A stretch of DNA of 12,006 nt from a virus. Lineage: Duplodnaviria > Heunggongvirae > Uroviricota > Caudoviricetes. A program made the position numbers and the translations under genes. The notes below the pieces were generated by a model that had not been told where the DNA came from, ran no database searches, and saw nothing but the letters and a program-made list of their open reading frames with translations. Positions 2,086 to 12,006 of this stretch are shown here, in pieces (the stretch's first letter is position 1; the number at the start of each line of letters is the position of its first letter). The DNA lies in the IMG/VR virus record IMGVR_UViG_2609460346_000011, positions 1-12,006 of that record; one strand, 5' to 3'.

Positions 2086-2701
2086 TTATTTTCATTTTAT
2101 AGTCAGCATGGCGCGATATGCGCCTAAACACTTCATACAATAAGAAACATCACTTAACCAAAGATGCATTCATGGTTTAAAAGATGCTCTACCCTTGTTA
2201 AGGAAACCGGAGTAAACAGATATAACAAAATAAAAGAAAGTGGACTATCAGAGGGATATTTTCATCTGTACGTCACACGTAAGAAATATATTTCAAGGAG
2301 CTAAGTTTAAAATCAACATTTATTTACAGAGTATAAAATTGAGTTATTCCGGTTACATTAACCGGATTGGGTGAACTGTTATGATAAATACAAGTAATGG
2401 CGACGTGGGTATATTCTCCACGAGGCATAAACAAACAAACGCTTTAAACATCATAACCGGATGTCCGGGAATACAGCATTATCCTGCTGACTGGAGCGGG
2501 CACATTGCTACATGTGAGGGAAGGAGGCCGGGTACTGGCAGCAGAGTCAAAAAAAGAAGCTCGCTAAAGCTAGCGAGCCAACCAGTCAGTAGTACGCGAT
2601 GGATCTGACATTAAGAATAATAGGCAGAAATAATTATGGCTTTTTTACTCTTAAAAATCAATCACTCAGCGCAAGTGAGCAAAAATAATTTGCAATATTG
2701 C

Positions 2702-2731
2702 TTGACTCGCTTTTTTGTCATGGCGTATCGT
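2702..2731 (+). promoter_or_regulatory. Putative sigma70-like promoter (TTGACT, ~18 bp spacer, TATCGT) reading into the repeat region
   Basis: TTGACT at 2702-2707 and a weak -10 candidate TATCGT at 2726-2731, with AT-rich DNA upstream. Pattern match only. Confidence 0.25.
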
Positions 2732-2756
2732 TTGCCCGCACCTCATAAAGCGGGTG

Positions 2757-2941
2757 CCGGGTTTAGCAGCCTGAACAATCAAGCGGGTAGCCGCTATATT
2801 TCCGTAATGCGGTTTTTTTGTGCCCGTAATTCCACCCTACCCCGTATTATGGCGGGGCGGAATGGGGGGGCCTTTGCGCTCGCTGGTTCCTTGATTGCCA
2901 GTCTGCTAACCCTGTTACGTCCCGCCACCATGTTTAGCAGC
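2757..2941 (+). promoter_or_regulatory. Non-coding region with direct 10-mer repeats (GTTTAGCAGC at 2761-2770 and 2932-2941) and an internal partly complementary segment (2897-2914); candidate RNA-RNA regulatory module
   Basis: The exact 10-mer occurs twice 171 bp apart. The reverse complement of 2897-2914 (CAGGGTTAGCAGACTGGC) aligns with the first repeat context (CCGGGTTTAGCAGCCTG) at about 14 of 16 positions with one bulge. The 173-aa ORF called across this region translates to low-complexity sequence that does not look protein-like. Confidence 0.35.
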
Positions 2942-2983
2942 GTGCTGGCGAGACTCCGTAAACTTAATCAAGGAGCCGCCAAA

Positions 2984-3157
2984 ATGGCTATATCAACACG
3001 CCCTGATTTTATCTGGCGCTTTATGCAGTGCCACGGTAAAAATATTCGCCTTCATACCGTTACCGCTGCCAGTGAGCGCGAAGCGCGCGCCATGCTTCCG
3101 GCATCCCGTCTGGTCTTTGTTGCCCGTATCCGTGTCCGGGAGGCGTGCCATGTTTAA
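2984..3157 (+). CDS. Hypothetical small protein, 57 aa
   Basis: Internal ATG of the 2636..3157 ORF, with SD AGGAG at 2971-2975 eight nt upstream. Its stop overlaps the next gene's start. No family recognised. Confidence 0.45.
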   Translation: MAISTRPDFIWRFMQCHGKNIRLHTVTAASEREARAMLPASRLVFVARIRVREACHV

Positions 3158-3523: not shown

Positions 3524-3738
3524 AAAGCCGTTCAATATCCCGTAAAAATAATGGCAGTGGTGAAAAACGTTTCTTTGTGTTGGGTTATGCCGTTAATAAA
3601 CGTGGGTTAACCAAACATGCACATGCAACGGTATACGGAACAGGACCGGGCGAAGCCATACGCCGCGCAGCCGAAGGGCTGGAAGAGCTGGGAATGACAC
3701 ATTTCAGGGCATTGAAGGTTACGCAGCTTTCCGCCTGA
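3520..3738 (+). CDS. Hypothetical small protein, 72 aa
   Basis: Start overlaps the upstream stop (ATGA) and a purine-rich stretch lies upstream. No family recognised. By position it could correspond to the small ORFs preceding the primase gene in P4-like elements. Confidence 0.45.
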   Translation: MKSRSISRKNNGSGEKRFFVLGYAVNKRGLTKHAHATVYGTGPGEAIRRAAEGLEELGMTHFRALKVTQLSA

Positions 3739-3805
3739 TTCCTTAATTACCAACTGATAACTGAATTAAATTTATATTTCGATCTTAACGGGTCGGGGAG
3801 TTTTT

Positions 3806-4105
3806 ATGTCTAAACGTCAGAATAGCGAAATTTTTTTAGATAGAGAATATGCTGGCTTTTTTACAGAAAGTGCAAAGGAAGATCTCACAGATGTGATTAA
3901 TCTCGTCAGTTTAATATCTGTGGTCTTTGGCGATAAAAATGGTAGAGCATCAGCAGAAATTATAAATGAAGAAATTGTATCTCTGTCTAACATTATTTAT
4001 AGGGAATTACAATCAATAAAATCTGGTATGCATTCATCCGGCGGAATTTTTTCATGGCATAGCGCCGAAACCGCCGGGATTGCCAAAGCAATAAGCAACG
4101 AGTAA
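3806..4105 (+). CDS. Hypothetical protein, 99 aa, encoded in a markedly AT-rich segment
   Basis: SD GGGGAG six nt upstream of the ATG. Codon usage and GC content are clearly lower than in the flanking genes. A perfect hairpin follows immediately downstream. Confidence 0.5.
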   Translation: MSKRQNSEIFLDREYAGFFTESAKEDLTDVINLVSLISVVFGDKNGRASAEIINEEIVSLSNIIYRELQSIKSGMHSSGGIFSWHSAETAGIAKAISNE

Positions 4106-4115
4106 TTAATAAAAA

Positions 4116-4140
4116 CCCCACTGCAAAAGGTGCAGTGGGG
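4116..4140 (+). terminator. Perfect 10-bp stem hairpin (CCCCACTGCA / AAAGG / TGCAGTGGGG), intrinsic terminator or RBS-sequestering structure
   Basis: Perfect inverted repeat seen directly, preceded by an A-tract and followed by a U-rich stretch. The right arm overlaps the purine-rich SD (GGTGGAG, 4138-4144) of the primase gene. Confidence 0.5.
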
Positions 4141-4153
4141 TGGAGTTTTATAT

Positions 4154-6823
4154 ATGAAATCTGACATCAGAAAAGAGATTATTAACCGTCTTATCCGTGA
4201 TTACAACTTCAAAGAAGAAAATAACTACCTCCGATATGGTGTTTGTCCACAATGTGGAAAGAAAGAGCTGTTTACCAGCCTTGAGAAGCCGTACATCGTA
4301 CACTGCGGGCGTGAAAATAAATGCGGTACAGACCTGCTAACCAAAGAACTTTACCCGGATGTGTTTTCATCATGGTCAGATCGCTATATCAGCACGAAAG
4401 ACGAGCCATATGCAGCGGCGGCAGCTTATCTTCAGGAGGCGCGCAATATTGCTGTGGAGCCACTGAAAGGGGTATTCACTCAGGAGCGATACCAGGACAA
4501 GGAAAGCGGCGAACAGGCCGCTACCGTGCGTTTTACACTGGCTGACGGCGTGTGGTGGGAGCGCATCATAGACCGACCGGAACGCTTCGAACGGAAGGCG
4601 AATTTTTCCGGCAGCTACAAGGGGCTGTGGTGGGCTTATCCGGGAACAGATTTAAGCAGGGCCAAGGAAATCTGGATTTGTGAGGGTGTCTTTGATGCAA
4701 TCAGCCTTAACCAGAATGGCATTGCGGCCGTTTCTGTCATGTCTGCCGTGAATTATCCTGATGAGGCGCTGGAAGAACTGGCAAAGCAGTGCGGAGATAA
4801 TCCCCGTCCGGTTATTGTGTGGGCGCTGGATAACGGGCGTGCAGGTGAGCGTTACGCGAAAAAACATGCAGAACGCAGCGCCGAAGACGGCTGGAGAACG
4901 GCGGCGGCGTTACCGGGTAAAAACAGCAATAAACGCGACTGGAATGATTTACACACCGCCGGAAAGCTGCGTAGCCATGATGTAAAAAGATACCGTTATT
5001 ACGGTGATTTATTACTGGCGAAATCCCCAAGAGATAAGGCGCTGATAATATTTTCCTTTTGTGAGCGGAAGGAATTTCATTTTACCTTTGATAACCGTGT
5101 TTTCTGGTTCAAACTGGACATTGAGCGCTATATGAAGGCTGTTGAGCGTGCCAAGAATGAGCGAAATGTTGATGAGGATGAAGCGCGCAAAATTGCACTT
5201 AAGGAATCCGGTACTGTAAAAGAAATCGCAAACTGTAACCCAGCGCCGCTTTATTACATTCGAAATAATGATACGGATGAAGCCTGGTATTACTTCCGTG
5301 TTACGTTCCCGGATGGTGCTACGGTGAAAAACACCTTTACATCAGGACAATTAACATCCGCATCTGAATTTAAAAAACGCCTGTTGCATGTGGCAAAAGG
5401 CGGTATTTATACCGGAACGACTGCGCACCTTGATGCATTAATAAAAAATGACCTTCCCGCAATAAAAAATGTTATCGGTCAGGATTTTATCGGATACAAC
5501 AAAGAGATTGGCGCGTGGCTGTTTAATGATGTCGCGGTTTGTAATGGTAAAACCTACGAAATCAATGAAGAGGATTATTTTGAAATTGATGGCATAAACG
5601 CAAAACCATTGAATAAAAAACCAATATTGCAGATTAACTATAAAAAACCGGATAAATTTACAATATCCTGGGTGGAAGATCTCTGGCTGGCGTTTGGTGA
5701 AAAGGGAATTATTACCCTGGCCTTCTGGCTGGGTTCGTTGTTCAGCGAACAAATCAGGCAGAAAAACACGTCTTACCCTTTTCTTGAGATTACCGGAGAG
5801 CCTGGAACGGGTAAAACAACGCTGATTGATTTTTGTTGGCGTTTGTGTGGCCGTGACAACTATGAAGGTGTTGATCCAACCAAAGGATCGGAATCAGGCT
5901 GGAAGCGAACTTTTGGACAGGTCGCCGGATTACCTGTTGTTCTGATTGAAGCAGACCGGGGAGACAATGCGCAAAAAAGAGGCGCGTTTGACTTCGATAA
6001 CCTGAAAAGCCTCTATAACGGTGGTGGTATTGGGGTACGTGGCGTTAAAACCAATGATAACGCCACATATGACCCCGTTTTTAAGGGGGCTGTCGTGATT
6101 GCGCAAAATGCCACGGTAAACGCCTCGTCGGCAATTATTGAGCGCCTGGTACGTGTATACACCGATAAAAAACGCCACTCACCAGATAGCCGACTGGCAG
6201 CAAAACGGCTGGAGCTTTACCCCGTTGAGCAGGTATCAGGTTTTATCCATCGGGCAGTAAGTCAGGAACGGACGATTATGGAGACGTTTATGGCACTCTC
6301 GGATTCTGAGACAACCCGCCTTTATAGTTGCGAAAATATTCGTCATCAGCGTATTGCCAAAAATCACGCGCAACTTATCGCGCTGGTCAGGGCGCTGAAA
6401 TGCGTTATTGATATCCCGGATGAATGGCTTGATGCCACATGTCTGGAACTGGAGCGAATGGCAGAGGAACAGGCTAAAGCGGTAATGGATGACTTGCCGG
6501 AAGTGATGGCGTTCTGGGAGACGTTCGACTATCTGGACGGCATCACAGCATACGGCGTAAATCATTTTGGCAAGGGACGGCAGAATGAGTTTGCCATCAG
6601 TATCCCGCAACTTGAGCAGGTTGCCGCCGTTCACCACGTGAAGATCCAAACCAATCCCGAAATGATAAAGCTTCTCAAGGCTGGCCGTTCTCGATCGCTG
6701 ATTGGATACAAGCCCGTCCGTAGCGAGGTATCCAGACAGGCGAACGCCGGGAGGGGAATAGCCGAGGCCAGAGAGAAGGAGGTATTGAAATGCTGGATAT
6801 TTAGTAACAAGGAGGGGGCTTAA
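4154..6823 (+). CDS. DNA primase/helicase-type replication initiator (zinc ribbon + TOPRIM/EGxxD primase + P-loop NTPase), P4 alpha-like in architecture, 889 aa
   Basis: Start taken at the ATG at 4154 (MKSDIRK) rather than the upstream in-frame ATG inside the hairpin. N-terminal Cys cluster CPQCGKK...HCGRENKCG; EGVFDA primase-type motif followed by an acidic DNGRAGE segment; Walker A GEPGTGKTT near residue 550. Confidence 0.85.
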   Translation: MKSDIRKEIINRLIRDYNFKEENNYLRYGVCPQCGKKELFTSLEKPYIVHCGRENKCGTDLLTKELYPDVFSSWSDRYISTKDEPYAAAAAYLQEARNIAVEPLKGVFTQERYQDKESGEQAATVRFTLADGVWWERIIDRPERFERKANFSGSYKGLWWAYPGTDLSRAKEIWICEGVFDAISLNQNGIAAVSVMSAVNYPDEALEELAKQCGDNPRPVIVWALDNGRAGERYAKKHAERSAEDGWRTAAALPGKNSNKRDWNDLHTAGKLRSHDVKRYRYYGDLLLAKSPRDKALIIFSFCERKEFHFTFDNRVFWFKLDIERYMKAVERAKNERNVDEDEARKIALKESGTVKEIANCNPAPLYYIRNNDTDEAWYYFRVTFPDGATVKNTFTSGQLTSASEFKKRLLHVAKGGIYTGTTAHLDALIKNDLPAIKNVIGQDFIGYNKEIGAWLFNDVAVCNGKTYEINEEDYFEIDGINAKPLNKKPILQINYKKPDKFTISWVEDLWLAFGEKGIITLAFWLGSLFSEQIRQKNTSYPFLEITGEPGTGKTTLIDFCWRLCGRDNYEGVDPTKGSESGWKRTFGQVAGLPVVLIEADRGDNAQKRGAFDFDNLKSLYNGGGIGVRGVKTNDNATYDPVFKGAVVIAQNATVNASSAIIERLVRVYTDKKRHSPDSRLAAKRLELYPVEQVSGFIHRAVSQERTIMETFMALSDSETTRLYSCENIRHQRIAKNHAQLIALVRALKCVIDIPDEWLDATCLELERMAEEQAKAVMDDLPEVMAFWETFDYLDGITAYGVNHFGKGRQNEFAISIPQLEQVAAVHHVKIQTNPEMIKLLKAGRSRSLIGYKPVRSEVSRQANAGRGIAEAREKEVLKCWIFSNKEGA

Positions 6824-6825
6824 GT

Positions 6826-7827
6826 ATGTCGATCAGAAAGATGGATGATGGGCGATGGCTGCTCGATATCAGGCCCCAAGGGGCGTACGGCAAACGGATA
6901 CGTAAAATTTTTGTCAGGAAAGGGAGTGCGGAGGTCTTCAAAGAACATATTTTACAGAATTTCCATAACAACCCATGGCTGGCTAAACCTGCTGATCGAC
7001 GGAGATTATCAGAGCTGCTTGATATATGGTGGATGCTTGATGGCCGTAACCAGGCTTACGGTGATACCTACAGGATTCGGATGGAGAAAGTGATTCGTGA
7101 AATGGGAGATCCGCGTGCCAGCCAGATGACGCAAAAATTTATGCTTGAGTATCGGTCAGAGAAATTACAGGCCGGCTTAATGCCATCCAGCATTAATCGT
7201 GACTTGTGCGTTCTGTCTACCATGTTCACGGTGCTGATTGAAGCTGAGGTCTTTCACAACCCGAACCCTGTACGCGGTATACGCAAGCTAAAAATTCAGA
7301 ATACAGAGATGGCCTTTCTTTCTGATGATGAGATTGAGCGGCTTCTTGAGCGACTGGAGGGGGATGCGCGTCGTGTTGCCATTCTGTGTCTTTCTACTGG
7401 TGCCCGATGGAGTGAAGCATCGGAACTACGTGGAGAGCACATCATTGGCAACCGGGTGACGTTCTTTAACACCAAAAACGGAAAATCCCGTTCGGTTCCT
7501 GTGGCTGATTCGGTCGTGCCGCTGATTAAGACCCACCGGACAGGGGTGTTGTATCAGGTTGATTATCTGAAGTTCCGGGAGATCCTTCAGGAGGTGAAGC
7601 CGGATTTACCGAAGGGGCAGGCTACGCATGTCATGCGTCATACATTTGCCACACACTTTATGATGAATGGCGGAAATATTGTTACGTTACAACGAATCCT
7701 GGGGCATGCCACGATTCAACAGACAATGACGTACGCGCATTTTTCTCCCGACTATCTGGCGGATGCCATGAGGTTTAACCCGATAGCTAACATGGCATTC
7801 ACTGAACAAGAAGAGCCAGCAGAGTAA
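6826..7827 (+). CDS. int: Tyrosine integrase, P2 Int-like family, 333 aa
   Basis: Near end-to-end resemblance to the P2 integrase as I recall it (MSIRKMDDGRWLLDIRPQG..GKRIRK...AILCLSTGARWSEA...GQATHVMRHTFATHFMMNGGNIVTLQRILGH...TYAHF). Catalytic Arg, HxxR box and Tyr are present. The ATG lies 2 nt after the primase stop, with the SD (AAGGAGGGGG) inside the primase 3' end. Confidence 0.85.
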   Translation: MSIRKMDDGRWLLDIRPQGAYGKRIRKIFVRKGSAEVFKEHILQNFHNNPWLAKPADRRRLSELLDIWWMLDGRNQAYGDTYRIRMEKVIREMGDPRASQMTQKFMLEYRSEKLQAGLMPSSINRDLCVLSTMFTVLIEAEVFHNPNPVRGIRKLKIQNTEMAFLSDDEIERLLERLEGDARRVAILCLSTGARWSEASELRGEHIIGNRVTFFNTKNGKSRSVPVADSVVPLIKTHRTGVLYQVDYLKFREILQEVKPDLPKGQATHVMRHTFATHFMMNGGNIVTLQRILGHATIQQTMTYAHFSPDYLADAMRFNPIANMAFTEQEEPAE

Positions 7828-8644: not shown

Positions 8645-9004
8645 TTTAGAGTAACTTTTTGCCCATCCGGCCCAGTACTGGCGCGCCCGGAGGGCGATTT
8701 CGTGCGTGCACAAAAAACGGTGAGTTTTTCGCGCGCAGGTGACGGGGGAACAGCACGCGTTTCAGGGGGTAAATTACATTTTCGCTAAAGGCTGCGGGAA
8801 TGCCCCGACCGGGTTAGTTTTATCGCCAGCCAGAGCCGTTCTTACGGCAAGAGAGAACTGATACGGGGAATGTGACGAGTGAGCATGGGAACGGCGCGCC
8901 CGTGCGTAATACGCGGCGACTGCTGCGGGTTTATTTGATACAGCCAGAGGGGGGCGGCAGAAGATATAATAGGTTAAATTTCACACCAGTAAGAGGAGCG
9001 TGAT

Positions 9005-9187
9005 ATGTCTTTCCCTTGCCCGGCCTGTGGCGCTTCAGCCCGCACCCGTGGTCGTTCGTTGGAAGAACACGAACAAAACATCTACAGAACGTATTACCAG
9101 TGCAATAATATTGAGTGTGGGGCTTGTTTTTGTACGCTTGAGTCGTTTGTACGCATTACTAAGCGCAGGAAGTCGAAAACTTCATAG
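9005..9187 (+). CDS. ogr: Ogr/Delta-family zinc-finger late-gene transcriptional activator, 60 aa
   Basis: SD AAGAGGAG upstream. CPAC...(x)...YQCNNIECGACFCTLESF matches the Ogr/Delta C-x2-C / C-x4-C zinc-finger signature and the FxTxES motif of P2 Ogr as recalled. Confidence 0.85.
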   Translation: MSFPCPACGASARTRGRSLEEHEQNIYRTYYQCNNIECGACFCTLESFVRITKRRKSKTS

Positions 9188-9237
9188 TGATTTGTATAAC
9201 ACAGCCAGCGAGTGTGACCGGCTGCGTTATTTCTGTA

Positions 9238-9636: not shown

Positions 9637-10347
9637 ATGGATATAACTCAGGCAAGCGCCGAACATCAGGTATGTAAAGCACAGTTTGATACAGCCATGG
9701 CAAAACTCAGTGAACAGGAATCATTAATCACCAATCTGGAAGCAACTATCGAACAGACGAAAGGGGAGCTGGAATCTCTCGATCGTGACTGGCAGAACTC
9801 AATCCTGTCTGCGCTGGGCGTAAAAACGGAAGCCTCCGCGAAATTATCCATTCAGGCGGGTGTGGCGCGAGAAAATCTTGAGCGTCTGCGGGTGCTGCAT
9901 GATGAGGCGCGCATCAGGCTACTGGAGTGTCGTTATAACGCGGCAGAGGCTGGTTGTGCTTACGAAAGCATTGATAATAAGTTGCGGGCAGAGATATTTG
10001 CAAAAGCACTTCCCGAACTGATTAACGAGCTGACCCCTGCTCTGTTATTGATTCGTGGTTTATGTGAGCTGCTTGGCCAGCCGCTGTATAACGCAGAAAA
10101 GAAAATATGCGAAACACTGAAAGCGACAGATACTGCTGAAAGTGTCGGGATGATTCGCGGCCGGATTAACGATACCGAAAGCGACACCTCCAGCCCGCTG
10201 CGTTATTGCCCGGAGAAACTCCCGGATTCGGTAAGCCGCGCAATCAGGAACGCCCCTTCACCTGTACAATGGAGCGCGGCGCGACAGAATCCAGAAAAAA
10301 TGCGCGACCTTGCGGAGGGCAGAGAACTCTGCCGGGGGTGGCAGTAA
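9637..10347 (+). CDS. Coiled-coil alpha-helical protein, 236 aa; putative capsid scaffold or size-determination-like (Sid/Psu/GpO-like) protein
   Basis: SD AGGAG seven nt upstream. The sequence is rich in Ala/Leu/Glu heptad-like segments. It sits immediately upstream of, and is translationally coupled to, the capsid gene (TAATG overlap at 10345-10349). The coding call is reasonably safe; the function is inferred from position and composition only. Confidence 0.5.
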   Translation: MDITQASAEHQVCKAQFDTAMAKLSEQESLITNLEATIEQTKGELESLDRDWQNSILSALGVKTEASAKLSIQAGVARENLERLRVLHDEARIRLLECRYNAAEAGCAYESIDNKLRAEIFAKALPELINELTPALLLIRGLCELLGQPLYNAEKKICETLKATDTAESVGMIRGRINDTESDTSSPLRYCPEKLPDSVSRAIRNAPSPVQWSAARQNPEKMRDLAEGRELCRGWQ

Positions 10348-11618
10348 TGGGCGGTCTGAATACTCCACATTTGCACGGCGCTGATATAGTGAGCCGACTC
10401 AGGGGATTAATGTCCCGGAATCGCCTGAAAGCAAACACAGCAAGCATAAGCGATGAGACGCGTCGCGCGCTGGACAATGAATATCAAAAACTGGAGCGTG
10501 AGCTTGAGCTTCACACCCTGCATACTGCAAGCGGTGGGGGTAATAACGACGGCATTGAGCGTTATAATTGCACTGCTGATTCTGTTGTATCACAACGAAA
10601 TCAACAGGCTCAGATGGTTTTCAATTGCGCTATCGAGTCGATAACCGGAAAGCATCCGAAGGATTTGCACTTTTCTGGTGACACTGCGCGCTATTCGTCA
10701 GAAGTTGAACCCGTTCCCCGCCAGAGTGCAACGCTTGCCAGTGGATGGCAGGCAAATTTCCTTGCTGAAATAACTCCCGTGCCTGTTACGGATATATCAG
10801 GTCGGGTTGTGCTGGTAGACGCTTCGGGGCCGTTGGCACGTACATCGCCACCTCACGAGCGCCGTTCGCCACTACAGGCGCATTCACTGGTTTCAAGGGG
10901 CTACCGCTGCGAGCAGGTTAATTTTGATTTTGCGCTGAACTACGACAATGTTGATGCTCACACATCCGCAAACGGTCTTGAAGGAAGCGCACGGGCTGCT
11001 TTTGAACGCCGGAAATGGCTGGATTTGATTCAGATTGGTTTTAACGGTACGCACTATGCCGATACATCAGATCCCGGAACATATCCGGGGCGTGATGATT
11101 GCGGCGTGGGCTGGTTGCAGAAGTTTCGAAATGAAGCGGCGGGAAGGGTTATCAGCGGCCTTTCTGTTTCATCACCGAAAAGTAATACACGCGGTACACA
11201 CCATACGATAGATGCGCTCGTTCTGGATGCCTGGCAATCCATGATTGATGAACAGTGGCAGGAAGGCATTGTGGCCGTATGCAGTCACAATACGCTGGTC
11301 CGTAAGCAATGGCCTTTGATAAACCGTCTTGATCCATCGCAGATGAATCAGGAAATTTTGCTTAACGAGGAAATCATTAAAAATCCCGTTCTGGGGAATC
11401 TCCCGGCTGTGACCGTTCCATTTTTCCCGGACAATGCTGTATTGATCACACCTCTTGCCAATCTGTGTCTGTACTGGCAGCGTGGTTCCGTTCGTGGCCT
11501 GGTAAAAAACGAGCCTCAGTATAATCGCCTCGCGTTCTATGAGTCCTGTAACCTTGACTGGGTGGTGGGGCAATATGAGGCAGGGTGCTTACTGGATGGG
11601 ATTGACTGGAAAGAATAG
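10347..11618 (+). CDS. Major capsid protein, P2 GpN-like family, 424 aa from the ATG at 10347 (alternative internal start at 10614)
   Basis: Extended motif agreement with P2 GpN as I recall it: CEQVNFDF, GFNGTHYADTSD, GVGWLQKFRNEAAGRV, IDALVLDA, GNLPAVTVPFFPDNAVLITPLANL, YESCNLDWVVGQYEAGCLLDGI. SD-like GGGGGTGG lies upstream of the 10347 ATG. About 89 residues precede the region that aligns with the GpN N-terminus. Confidence 0.8.
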   Translation: MGGLNTPHLHGADIVSRLRGLMSRNRLKANTASISDETRRALDNEYQKLERELELHTLHTASGGGNNDGIERYNCTADSVVSQRNQQAQMVFNCAIESITGKHPKDLHFSGDTARYSSEVEPVPRQSATLASGWQANFLAEITPVPVTDISGRVVLVDASGPLARTSPPHERRSPLQAHSLVSRGYRCEQVNFDFALNYDNVDAHTSANGLEGSARAAFERRKWLDLIQIGFNGTHYADTSDPGTYPGRDDCGVGWLQKFRNEAAGRVISGLSVSSPKSNTRGTHHTIDALVLDAWQSMIDEQWQEGIVAVCSHNTLVRKQWPLINRLDPSQMNQEILLNEEIIKNPVLGNLPAVTVPFFPDNAVLITPLANLCLYWQRGSVRGLVKNEPQYNRLAFYESCNLDWVVGQYEAGCLLDGIDWKE

Positions 11619-11661: not shown

Positions 11662-12006
11662 TTACTTAAGCAGATGCTCTCCACCAATCAGGGTTATGAC
11701 TCTTTCAAGCACATCATTAAATACCCCATCTTCTGCCTCTGTGATTAAGCGCGCTTTCCGCTGACGCCAGTCAAGGGTTTGAATGAGTGTGGTTGCTACC
11801 ACGCTGGGGGCGTCCAGATTTGTTACCGGAACTTCTGTGGGAGCATTTCGTATGCTCGTACTTATGGAGCAGCATATGACAAGCCCGGTGAGTCGGTTAT
11901 ATTGCTCATGGGATAGTATGAGTGCCGGGCGATACTTTCCGATCTCTTTTCCTTTCTGCGGCTCAAAATCCAGCCAGCAAATATCACCACGCTTAGGTAC
12001 AAACAT
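11662..12006 (-). CDS. Type II toxin, MazF/PemK/Kid-family endoribonuclease, 114 aa
   Basis: RGDICWLDFEPQKGKEIGKYRPALILS...LTGLVICCSISTS...VATTLIQTLDWRQRKARL follows the MazF/PemK pattern (RGDI..V.FDP..G.E..G.RPALVLS). The start codon sits on the last three bases of the window, so the upstream partner gene and promoter are not visible. Confidence 0.8.
   Translation of the reverse strand: MFVPKRGDICWLDFEPQKGKEIGKYRPALILSHEQYNRLTGLVICCSISTSIRNAPTEVPVTNLDAPSVVATTLIQTLDWRQRKARLITEAEDGVFNDVLERVITLIGGEHLLK

What the first reader, a model, noticed from the sequence alone, without database searches (positions are those of the whole stretch)
4116..4156. Perfect hairpin overlapping the primase ribosome-binding site
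The right arm of the 10-bp stem (TGCAGTGGGG) runs into the GGTGGAG SD that sits 9 nt before the primase ATG at 4154. The structure could therefore act both as a terminator for the upstream gene and as an RBS-occluding element that makes primase translation depend on read-through or structure opening. That would be a plausible switch for replication control.
Basis: seen in the sequence. Interest (0 to 1): 0.4.

Follow-up and report, generated by a model that had tools for sequence, protein, structure and literature searches.

The report
Conserved terminator hairpin before satellite primase
The hairpin is real and conserved in a family of E. coli phage-satellite islands, but it leaves the primase ribosome-binding site free; it reads best as the terminator of a predicted short antisense RNA that would cover the primase start site.

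Summary
A perfect 11-bp stem (4115-4141, loop AAAGG) lies 10 nt after the stop of a 99-aa ORF. It ends directly before the GGAG Shine-Dalgarno (4142-4145), which sits 8 nt before the primase ATG (4154).

The stem is not chance: 0.017 are expected per shuffled window. Close relatives show four compensatory double substitutions, and at least seven unrelated stem sequences occupy the same position across this primase family.

The window is a P4-like satellite island at tRNA-Arg in E. coli.

RBS occlusion by the stem is not supported, because the SD core lies outside the stem in every lineage with a recognisable SD next to it. As a sense-strand terminator the hairpin is non-canonical, since the SD interrupts the U-run. 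On the minus strand it is canonical: the stem is followed at once by UUUUUAUU, and that A-tract is conserved in most enterobacterial clades.

A sigma-70-like minus-strand promoter lies inside primase codons 9-18 (TTGTAA-17-AATAAT). It co-occurs with the hairpin. In a diverged sister clade it is held by synonymous-site constraint: the rare Ile codon ATA is present in 7 of 7 lineages.

Best reading (about 0.45, with no expression data): a roughly 64-nt cis-antisense RNA (4171 to 4108) masks the primase SD and AUG, as pMV158 RNAII does for repB. Main rival: a leaky sense-strand attenuator.

The parts
3806..4105 (+). Upstream 99-aa ORF with no family match. It ends in TAA at 4103-4105, 10 nt before the stem.
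   Evidence: ORF list. Annotated as a hypothetical protein in RefSeq relatives. No Pfam or PHROG hit. In relatives the gene at this position is often PF25738 'Derepression'.
4108..4114 (.). A-tract TAAAAAA on the + strand. On the - strand it is the U-tract UUUUUAUU that directly follows the stem.
   Evidence: The A-tract is conserved in front of unrelated stems in the E. coli, Yersinia, Salmonella, Pectobacterium and Providencia-type clades.
4115..4141 (.). Perfect 11-bp stem with the 5-nt loop AAAGG. This is the hairpin of the finding.
4142..4145 (+). Shine-Dalgarno core GGAG of the primase gene. It is unpaired and starts immediately 3' of the stem.
4146..4153 (+). U/A-rich 8-nt spacer UUUUAUAU between the SD and the AUG. 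It can pair weakly with the A-tract, leaving GGAG as a bulge.
4154..6823 (+). Primase-helicase gene, 889 aa, with a Toprim domain.
   Evidence: Pfam Toprim_2/Toprim_3. PHROG 1139 DNA primase, E = 0. 871 homologues; some sources name them 'bifunctional DNA primase/helicase'.
4178..4183 (-). Candidate -10 hexamer AATAAT of a minus-strand promoter. It is the reverse complement of the Ile-Ile codons ATT ATT.
   Evidence: In a sister clade the homologous codons are ATT ATA (TATAAT), and ATA is fixed in 7 of 7 lineages although ATA makes up only 17% of Ile codons.
4201..4206 (-). Candidate -35 hexamer TTGTAA, 17 nt from the -10. It lies over the codons GAT TAC AAC.
   Evidence: The third base of the Tyr/Phe codon is C, which gives the G of TTG, in every A-tract lineage that carries this promoter. 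It is T in L102, in the GCACAC clade and in most hairpin-less lineages.
4108..4171 (-). Predicted cis-antisense RNA of about 64 nt. It has a largely unstructured 5' tail of about 30 nt, complementary to primase codons 1-6, the AUG, the spacer and the SD. The terminator hairpin and U-tail follow. This is inferred and has not been observed.
   Evidence: Fold of 4107-4172 on the - strand: -23.9 kcal/mol, z = -5.7; the tail carries only a weak 4-bp hairpin. Promoter and terminator evidence as in the rows above.

Best explanation
The stem-loop is a Rho-independent terminator hairpin whose functional orientation in this island is mainly the minus strand. A sigma-70-type promoter lies inside primase codons 9-18 (-35 TTGTAA 4206-4201, 17-nt spacer, -10 AATAAT 4183-4178). 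It would fire leftwards from about 4171. The transcript would run across the primase AUG and SD and stop at the hairpin plus UUUUUAUU, near 4108.

[quoted passage not shown] By pairing with the primase mRNA from -12 to +18, it would block 30S binding or trigger cleavage. That would hold down synthesis of the satellite's replication enzyme.

In the sense mRNA the complementary hairpin inevitably forms just 5' of the SD. There it leaves GGAG free and is at most a weak attenuator or 3' stabiliser for the upstream operon.

Shown: the structure, its covariation, the position of the SD outside the stem, the asymmetry of the U-tracts, and the conserved promoter-like element with synonymous-site constraint. 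Inferred: that the promoter fires, that the RNA accumulates, and that it represses the primase.
For: 1. The structure is real and under selection.
- 0.017 such stems are expected by chance.
- Compensatory changes: A:U to G:C in Yersinia L098. In L120 (93% primase identity), U:A to C:G and C:G to U:A.
- At least seven unrelated stems sit at the same site across the primase family.

2. The terminator signature is asymmetric.
- On the - strand the stem is followed directly by U4-7, with a tail score of 2.0-5.4, in the E. coli, Yersinia, Salmonella-type, Pectobacterium, L028 and Providencia-type clades.
- On the + strand the tail score is 0.01-1.3 in the window clade.
- Sub-threshold Rfam hits are almost all - strand sRNA 3' ends.

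3. A - strand promoter sits at a fixed position (TSS about +18). The score is a simple log-odds promoter score in bits. The percentile is the rank among the best scores in random 152-nt windows of the same loci.
- Window: 9.2 bits, top 8% of background windows.
- L098: 11.7 bits.
- L100 and L101: TTGTAA-17-TATAAT, 12.8 bits, top 0.4%.
- L221, L125 and L028: 11.3 bits.
- Hairpin-less lineages score about the background median.

4. Synonymous sites are constrained in seven lineages that are 57-66% identical in protein and near-saturated at synonymous sites.
- The second Ile codon is ATA in 7 of 7, although ATA is 17% of Ile codons.
- Only 11 of 296 invariant-residue columns keep one codon in all 7.
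- L225 changes Ile to Val using GTA, which still gives TACAAT.

5. The Providencia-type clade lacks that promoter. All 12 of its sequences examined, including hairpin-less L203, carry an extended -10, TG(G/A)TATGAT, on the - strand over codons 2-4. The chance expectation is 0.0035-0.014 per 60 nt.

6. Lineages whose hairpin has no - strand U-tract (L102, L222/L227) also lack a promoter above background.

7. The architecture matches pMV158 RNAII. That RNA is 48 nt, with a 17-nt A/U-rich 5' tail, a terminator hairpin and a U-tail. It is complementary to the region just upstream of the replication gene (PMC4485353).
Against: - No transcript data of any kind. Promoter and terminator are sequence predictions.
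- Any Ile-Ile dipeptide gives xATxAT on the opposite strand, so part of the -10 match comes free. The window's own -10 (AATAAT) and promoter score (top 8%) are only moderate.
- The lineages are related, so the co-occurrence of hairpin and promoter is not a set of independent events.
- Wobble evidence for strand choice is mixed. L008, L120 and L200/L202/L124 favour the - strand (C.A on +, G.U on -). L211, L214, L222 and L227 favour the + strand.
- A hairpin next to the SD also exists in clades with no A-tract, including a GC-rich distant clade with G.U pairs on the + strand. Some sense-strand role is therefore probably ancestral.
- No literature report of such an RNA was found.
Confidence: 0.45

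Rival explanations
1. Sense-strand attenuator. The hairpin is the leaky intrinsic terminator and 3'-end stabiliser of the early operon (isrK/C4, icd-like gene, small ORFs, orf99). Primase is made only from read-through transcripts. Read-through could be helped by ribosomes terminating 5-10 nt before the stem, or by an antiterminator. The minus-strand U-tract and promoter-like hexamers would be incidental: a bidirectional terminator next to AT-rich codons.
For: - The hairpin lies 10 nt after the stop codon of the upstream gene, 5 nt in some variants.
- No + strand promoter-like site lies between 3900 and 4153, so primase needs read-through.
- In the Salmonella/Pectobacterium-type clade, 2-4 U follow the GC stem directly on the + strand, with a tail score of 1.9-3.2.
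- In the distant GC-rich clade the hairpin is followed by a U-rich run of up to 7-8 U on the + strand only, with G.U pairs that work only on the + strand.
- The island encodes an AlpA-family protein. AlpA of P. aeruginosa is an antiterminator (PMC7969949).
Against: - In the window clade the U-run is displaced by GGAG. The + strand tail score is 1.3 or less, which by established knowledge of intrinsic terminators predicts poor termination.
- It does not explain the fixed rare ATA codon, the C-ending Tyr/Phe codon, or the clade-specific extended -10 on the opposite strand.
- It does not explain why the A-tract is kept in front of unrelated stems.
Confidence: 0.3
2. Translation-initiation module in the sense mRNA. 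A stable hairpin placed directly 5' of the SD either insulates the SD from upstream sequence and provides an A-rich standby site, or is an operator bound by a protein. One candidate is autoregulation by the primase, as with T4 gp43 (from general knowledge).
For: - The stem-to-SD distance is 0-3 nt in every enterobacterial clade with a recognisable SD beside the stem.
- In the distant GC-rich clade the hairpin is followed 1-2 nt later by GGGA, a 6-nt U-rich spacer and UUG. That clade has no minus-strand terminator features.
- L102 and L222/L227 keep a hairpin with no U-tract on either strand.
Against: - Loop and stem sequences are not conserved between clades, so a sequence-specific protein operator is unlikely.
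- Several lineages do without any hairpin: the L029 group, L203, L213 and L224.
Confidence: 0.12
3. The right arm of the stem occludes the SD, so primase translation depends on opening of the structure.
For: - The last three stem bases (GGU, 4139-4141) belong to a possible extended SD, GGUGGAG.
- A weak A-tract:U-spacer extension can leave GGAG as a 4-nt bulge.
- In several distant-clade sequences a lower stem pairs with part of the GGGA.
Against: - GGAG is unpaired in the centroid folds of 71 nt and 201 nt.
- The SD is outside the stem wherever it can be recognised next to it.
- No alternative anti-sequestor pairing was seen.
Confidence: 0.05
4. A DNA-level element. The perfect palindrome would be a binding site for a dimeric protein, or a single-strand hairpin used in replication initiation.
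For: It is a perfect 10+10 palindrome next to the replication gene.
Against: - The half-site sequence is replaced wholesale between close relatives while the pairing is kept. That fits a folded nucleic acid, not a fixed protein site.
- G.U-type (G.T) pairs occur in several lineages.
- The hairpin is flanked by A- and U-tracts typical of terminators.
Confidence: 0.03

Closest known systems
pMV158 RNAII (countertranscript controlling repB translation)
   Same: [quoted passage not shown] It is encoded opposite the intergenic region just upstream of the replication gene, and the target mRNA carries the complementary hairpin (PMC4485353).
   Different: - Here the predicted RNA is about 64 nt, and its promoter lies inside the target's coding region, so the RNA also covers the AUG.
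- The host element is an integrated P4-like satellite of Gram-negative bacteria with a Toprim primase-helicase, not a rolling-circle plasmid.
- Nothing has been shown experimentally.
Phage P22 sar RNA (antisense to the ant ribosome-binding site)
   Same: From my own knowledge (references are listed in PMC2629481): a 68-69-nt antisense RNA. It starts inside the 5' end of the target gene, is complementary to the arc-ant intercistronic region including the ant RBS, and ends at a terminator in that region.
   Different: The target there is an antirepressor, not a replication gene. There is no sequence or Rfam relationship.
Bidirectional Rho-independent terminators
   Same: A GC-rich stem flanked by an A-tract 5' and a U-rich tract 3'.
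   Different: There is no convergent gene on the minus strand. The + strand U-tract is interrupted by a functional SD, and the AUG of the next gene follows only 13 nt after the stem.
P4 / P1 RNA-based immunity (P4 CI RNA, P1 c4 RNA)
   Same: The same island carries Rfam-level isrK and C4 RNA genes upstream. RNA-based control of its early operon is therefore already a feature of the element.
   Different: Those RNAs act on upstream targets. P4 itself has no hairpin before its alpha primase gene, only a 14-nt gap after orf106. P4 alpha is also a different primase family.

Membership tests
Rho-independent terminator, sense (+) orientation | GC-rich stem of 5-14 bp with a 3-8 nt loop | tested here: met
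   11 bp, 7 GC pairs, 5-nt loop, about -21 kcal/mol.
Rho-independent terminator, sense (+) orientation | U-rich tract starting within 0-2 nt of the stem | tested here: not met
   The tail is GGAGUUUUAUAU. The tail score is 1.3 or less in the window clade, against 2.0-5.0 on the other strand.
Rho-independent terminator, sense (+) orientation | Lies downstream of a transcribed gene end | tested here: met
   The stop codon TAA at 4103-4105 is 10 nt before the stem.
Rho-independent terminator, antisense (-) orientation | GC-rich stem followed at once by a U-tract | tested here: met
   ACCCCACUGCA-CCUUU-UGCAGUGGGGU followed by UUUUAUUAAU. The - strand tail score is 4.5. The feature is conserved behind unrelated stems.
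Rho-independent terminator, antisense (-) orientation | Actual termination of transcripts at the site | not testable with these tools
   Needs in vitro transcription or Term-seq.
Cis-antisense countertranscript controlling a replication gene (pMV158 RNAII, R1 CopA, ColE2 RNAI type) | Promoter on the opposite strand at or within the 5' end of the target gene | tested here: inconclusive
   TTGTAA-17-AATAAT at 4206-4178 scores 9.2 bits, in the top 8% of background. The same position scores 11-13 bits in sister clades, with synonymous-site constraint. Activity has not been measured.
Cis-antisense countertranscript controlling a replication gene (pMV158 RNAII, R1 CopA, ColE2 RNAI type) | Small RNA (about 50-150 nt) ending in its own intrinsic terminator and complementary to the target's translation-initiation region | tested here: met
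   This is a prediction from sequence only: 4171 to 4108, about 64 nt. It covers the SD (4142-4145) and the AUG (4154-4156) and ends in the hairpin plus U-tail.
Cis-antisense countertranscript controlling a replication gene (pMV158 RNAII, R1 CopA, ColE2 RNAI type) | The RNA is detectable and represses the replication gene or copy number in trans | not testable with these tools
   No transcriptome or genetics is available. No report was found.
RBS-sequestering hairpin / translational switch | SD or start codon base-paired in the stable conformer | tested here: not met
   GGAG and AUG are unpaired in the centroid structures. The SD lies outside the stem in every homologous lineage where it can be recognised beside the stem.
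Any curated Rfam family | Score at or above the family gathering threshold | tested here: not met
   Only isrK and C4 pass, and they lie elsewhere in the window. At 4040-4280 the best hit is 23.3 bits against a threshold of 60, and all such hits are driven by the terminator.
Dispersed palindromic repeat (REP-like) | Many copies per genome in varied contexts | tested here: not met
   One place per genome, two where a second island is present, in 58 of 5426 genomes. Every place inspected or listed is at the orf-primase junction.

The most novel reading that the evidence does not exclude
The hairpin-SD module and its predicted antisense RNA would form a specificity (incompatibility) system for this family of P4-like satellites. 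The hypervariable segment comprises primase codons 2-5, the SD spacer and the stem sequence, and it is exactly what the antisense RNA would read. Each variant would then repress only its own kind, allowing different satellites to co-reside while copies of the same type are shut down at the level of primase translation.

This fits two observations. In the three two-island genomes that could be resolved (ETEC1732, ETEC1734, ETEC4067), a CCCCACTGCA- or CCCACTGCA-type island is paired with a CCCCCTGTA-type island. Recombination breakpoints also fall at about 4147-4153.
Probability: 0.15. Interest if true: 0.7.

Novelty: new member of a known kind. Interest (0 to 1): 0.45.

Why it matters
P4-like satellites are reported in more than 30% of Enterobacterales genomes (abstract of PMC8628076). 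How the members that carry this Toprim primase-helicase control their replication gene is not described.

If the predicted antisense RNA exists, it adds a plasmid-style countertranscript layer to a phage satellite. It would sit beside the C4/isrK RNA genes already present in the island. It would also define an RNA gene that annotation pipelines currently miss, since nothing is annotated at this site in any of the records inspected.

If it does not exist, the result is still useful. It shows that a textbook-looking 'RBS hairpin' leaves the SD free, and that it is an ordinary intergenic terminator-type element.

Tried and rejected
- **Rfam.** At gathering threshold and at E up to 10, nothing specific appears. 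The sub-threshold hits are generic terminator matches.
- **Strand assignment from wobble pairs.** The result is mixed, so it is not decisive. L008, L120 and L200/L202/L124 favour the - strand; L211, L214, L222 and L227 favour the + strand.
- **Automated terminator discriminant on whole folds.** It was unreliable because RNAfold absorbs the A and U tracts into the stem. I replaced it with tail scores taken from the GC core of the stem.
- **Scan of genome contigs with the primase N-terminus.** It returned only one close locus. Diversity came from IMG/VR, the metagenome scan and look-ups by exact protein.
- **P4 itself.** It has no comparable hairpin before alpha, so this is not a described P4 feature.
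- **REP-like repeat.** Rejected, because the region is single-copy.
- **Long-range pairing of GGAG with CUCC at about 4231.** It appears only in the MFE fold, not in the centroid, so I did not pursue it.
- **Literature searches.** Searches for an antisense RNA or terminator at P4-like primase genes found nothing. One search failed on a term that was too short.
- **The orf99 product.** It has no Pfam or PHROG family.
- **Not used.** Structure prediction and fold search, because the question concerns RNA and DNA.
Full report
**What is there**

The sequence reads TAA(4103-4105)-TTAATAAAAA-CCCCACTGCA-AAAGG-TGCAGTGGGG-T-GGAG-TTTTATAT-ATG(4154).
- With A4115:T4141 the stem is 11 perfect pairs with a 5-nt loop.
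- It is the centroid structure on both strands: + strand centroid -21.3 kcal/mol (MFE -22, z = -4.0), - strand -22.3 kcal/mol (z = -5.1).
- It is the only perfect stem of at least 9 bp in the 12-kb window. Shuffled windows give 0.017 stems of at least 11 bp.

**Context**

The window matches E. coli TOE17 at 99.9% over the stretch compared (3700-4500). There it is an island inserted next to a tRNA-Arg gene. Its gene order is:
- integrase and an AlpA-family regulator;
- an 'Icd-like' ORF that contains Rfam isrK and C4 RNA matches;
- several small ORFs;
- the 889-aa Toprim primase-helicase;
- a second integrase-like gene and an Ogr/Delta zinc-finger gene;
- a P2-family major capsid gene and MazEF.

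This makes it a P4-like satellite, but with a primase unrelated to P4 alpha. P4 itself has no hairpin before alpha. The hairpin region is single-copy, occurs in 58 of 5426 complete E. coli genomes, and carries no RNA annotation in any listed record.

**Is the structure selected?**

Yes.
- Among ten close relatives, 4 of 11 pairs show changes on both sides and 94% of cells are paired. Only 1 of 500 shuffles reaches this, and slid registers collapse to 33-62% paired.
- Specific cases are Yersinia L098 (CCCCGCTGCA/TGCAGCGGGG) and L120 (CCCCACCGT/ACGGTGGGG).
- Some E. coli islands carry a different stem at the same place, CCCCCTGTA/TACAGGGGG.
- Further out in the primase family (45-76% identity), unrelated stems occupy the same site: AAGCGCCG/CGGCGCTT, GCGCCCT, AAAATGCAC, GCACACAA, GGGCGCTA and TGCGCTGACC.
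- Other lineages have no hairpin at all: the L029 group, L203, L213 and L224.

**Does it occlude the RBS?**

No, as far as sequence can show. GGAG is unpaired in the centroid folds of 71 nt and 201 nt. Wherever an SD is recognisable beside the hairpin, it starts 0-3 nt after the stem. The conserved feature is adjacency, not overlap.

**Is it a sense-strand terminator?**

Only weakly in this clade. The U-run is pushed 5 nt away by the SD, and the + strand U-tail score is 0.01-1.3. On the - strand the stem is followed at once by UUUUUAUU, with a tail score of 4.5.

The corresponding A-tract (AATAAAAA) is kept in front of unrelated stems in the E. coli, Salmonella-type, Pectobacterium, L028 and Providencia-type clades. 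It is weaker in Yersinia (tail score 2.0). In the Salmonella/Pectobacterium-type clade, 2-4 U also follow the stem on the + strand. Those versions look truly bidirectional.

**What would be terminated on the minus strand?**

No gene is annotated there. However, a sigma-70-like promoter lies at a fixed place inside primase codons 9-18.

| Lineage | Promoter | Score | Rank in background |
|---|---|---|---|
| Window | TTGTAA-17-AATAAT | 9.2 bits | top 8% |
| L098 (Yersinia) | TTGAAA-17-AATAAT | 11.7 bits | top 0.7% |
| L100, L101 | TTGTAA-17-TATAAT | 12.8 bits | top 0.4% |
| L221, L125, L028 | TGGAAA-17-TATAAT | 11.3 bits | top 1.4% |

Scores are from a simple log-odds promoter model; ranks are against the best score in random 152-nt windows of the same loci. 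Hairpin-less enterobacterial lineages score about the background median.

An Ile-Ile dipeptide gives xATxAT on the other strand for free, so I tested synonymous sites.
- The test used seven lineages with the GCGCCG-type hairpin. They are 57-66% identical in protein, with a same-codon fraction of about 0.40-0.53 at identical residues.
- The second Ile codon is ATA in 7 of 7, although ATA is 17% of Ile codons in these genes. The first is ATT in 6 of 7.
- Only 11 of 296 invariant-residue columns keep one codon in all seven.
- The Tyr/Phe codon that supplies the G of the -35 ends in C in every one of these lineages, and in the window clade, Yersinia and L038. It is TTT in L102, in the GCACAC clade and in most hairpin-less lineages.
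- L225 has Val instead of the second Ile, but uses GTA, which keeps TACAAT.

The Providencia-type clade lacks this promoter. All twelve of its sequences examined, including hairpin-less L203, carry an extended -10, TG(G/A)TATGAT, over codons 2-4. The expectation is 0.0035-0.014 per 60 nt. The one variable base is the unconstrained n of the TGn motif.

Lineages whose hairpin has no - strand U-tract (L102, L222/L227) have no promoter above background.

**The predicted RNA**

Together these features predict a roughly 64-nt RNA from about 4171 to about 4108. It folds as a largely open 5' tail plus the terminator hairpin (-23.9 kcal/mol, z = -5.7). It is complementary to primase codons 1-6, the AUG, the spacer and the SD.

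The closest described architecture is pMV158 RNAII. P22 sar, from my own knowledge, has the same layout of promoter, target and terminator.

**What limits this conclusion**

- There are no expression data.
- The window's own promoter is only moderate.
- The lineages are not independent.
- Wobble pairs do not pick a strand consistently.
- A hairpin beside the SD also exists where no antisense features exist.

The last point is clearest in a distant GC-rich clade (42-47% identity). There the hairpin has G.U pairs that work only on the + strand. It is followed 1-2 nt later by GGGA, a U-rich spacer and UUG-CCn. The motif sits at a fixed -24 from a primase AUG that has no SD of its own.

A sense-strand role (attenuation, 3' stabilisation or presentation of the SD) is therefore probably ancestral and may persist here. 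For that reason I give the antisense-RNA reading 0.45 and the sense-attenuator reading 0.30.

**Verdict**

The most likely mechanism is antisense-RNA termination and masking of the primase start site.

This would be a new member of a known kind, and it is moderately interesting.

Noticed in passing
window 2738-2819 and 2845-2932 (+), inside ORF 2636-3157: Rfam isrK (52.1 bits) and C4 antisense RNA (67.3 bits) both pass their gathering thresholds. Both lie inside the 5' half of the 173-aa ORF that RefSeq calls 'Icd-like'. Several PHROG matches to that ORF cover only residues 119-173. The annotated ORF is probably over-extended across two RNA genes, in a P1 immI-like layout (c4, then icd).
   Followed up: partly
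window 2558-2579 (- strand): This is a second strong minus-strand terminator-like hairpin: GGCTCGCTAGC-TTTAGCGAGCT followed by TCTTTTTTTG. It has an A-tract on the + strand side. It lies between the alpA-like gene and isrK, where only + strand genes are annotated. It may end another leftward transcript.
   Followed up: no
L045, L047, L049, L050, L057, L061, L072, L083, L097, L131, L143, L154, L157 and others; 25-70 nt upstream of the primase start: A distant GC-rich clade (42-47% primase identity) carries a conserved motif. It is a hairpin CAYGCC..GGCRTG, then 1-2 nt, (A/G)GGAY, a U-rich run and TTGCC, often fixed at -24 from the ATG. TTG opens a 4-5-codon mini-ORF whose TGA overlaps the primase ATG (ATGA or TGATG) in L045, L047, L049, L050, L061 and L083. 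The primase ATG has no SD of its own. This may be a leader ORF with translational coupling, superimposed on a sense-strand terminator.
   Followed up: partly
L015 (E. coli E92) 1058-1090, equivalent to window ~4153: An IS903B copy is inserted directly after GGAGTTTTATAT, exactly where the primase ATG would be. This separates the hairpin and SD from the gene.
   Followed up: no
window ~4147-4153; hits H43-H50: Mosaic breakpoints between island variants fall between the SD and the ATG. Some relatives match only from query position 448 onward. The upstream gene and its hairpin therefore appear to be exchanged as a unit, separately from the primase gene.
   Followed up: partly
E. coli ETEC1732, ETEC1734, ETEC4067: The three two-island genomes whose second copy could be located carry different hairpin and 5'-codon types. 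One is CCCCACTGCA- or CCCACTGCA-type, near 1.55 Mb. The other is CCCCCTGTA-type, near 4.13-4.29 Mb. The second copy in STEC306/307/308 could not be located.
   Followed up: partly
window 6826-7827 (+): A second tyrosine-recombinase gene (Int_N plus Phage_integrase) starts 3 nt after the primase stop codon. It is conserved at that position in many relatives, from Yersinia to Salmonella. Its role beside the tRNA-side integrase is unclear.
   Followed up: no
window 10206-11618 (+; RefSeq start ~10347) and ~9000-9190: This 12-kb satellite-like island encodes its own P2-family major capsid protein (Pfam Phage_cap_P2, 1.3e-71) and an Ogr/Delta zinc-finger protein. No Sid or Psu homologue was recognised. 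It is therefore not a classical P4 and may form capsids partly from its own protein.
   Followed up: no
window 11662-12006 (-) and beyond: A MazF/PemK-type toxin with a MazE-type antitoxin sits at the distal end of the island, next to dsdC (RefSeq annotation).
   Followed up: no
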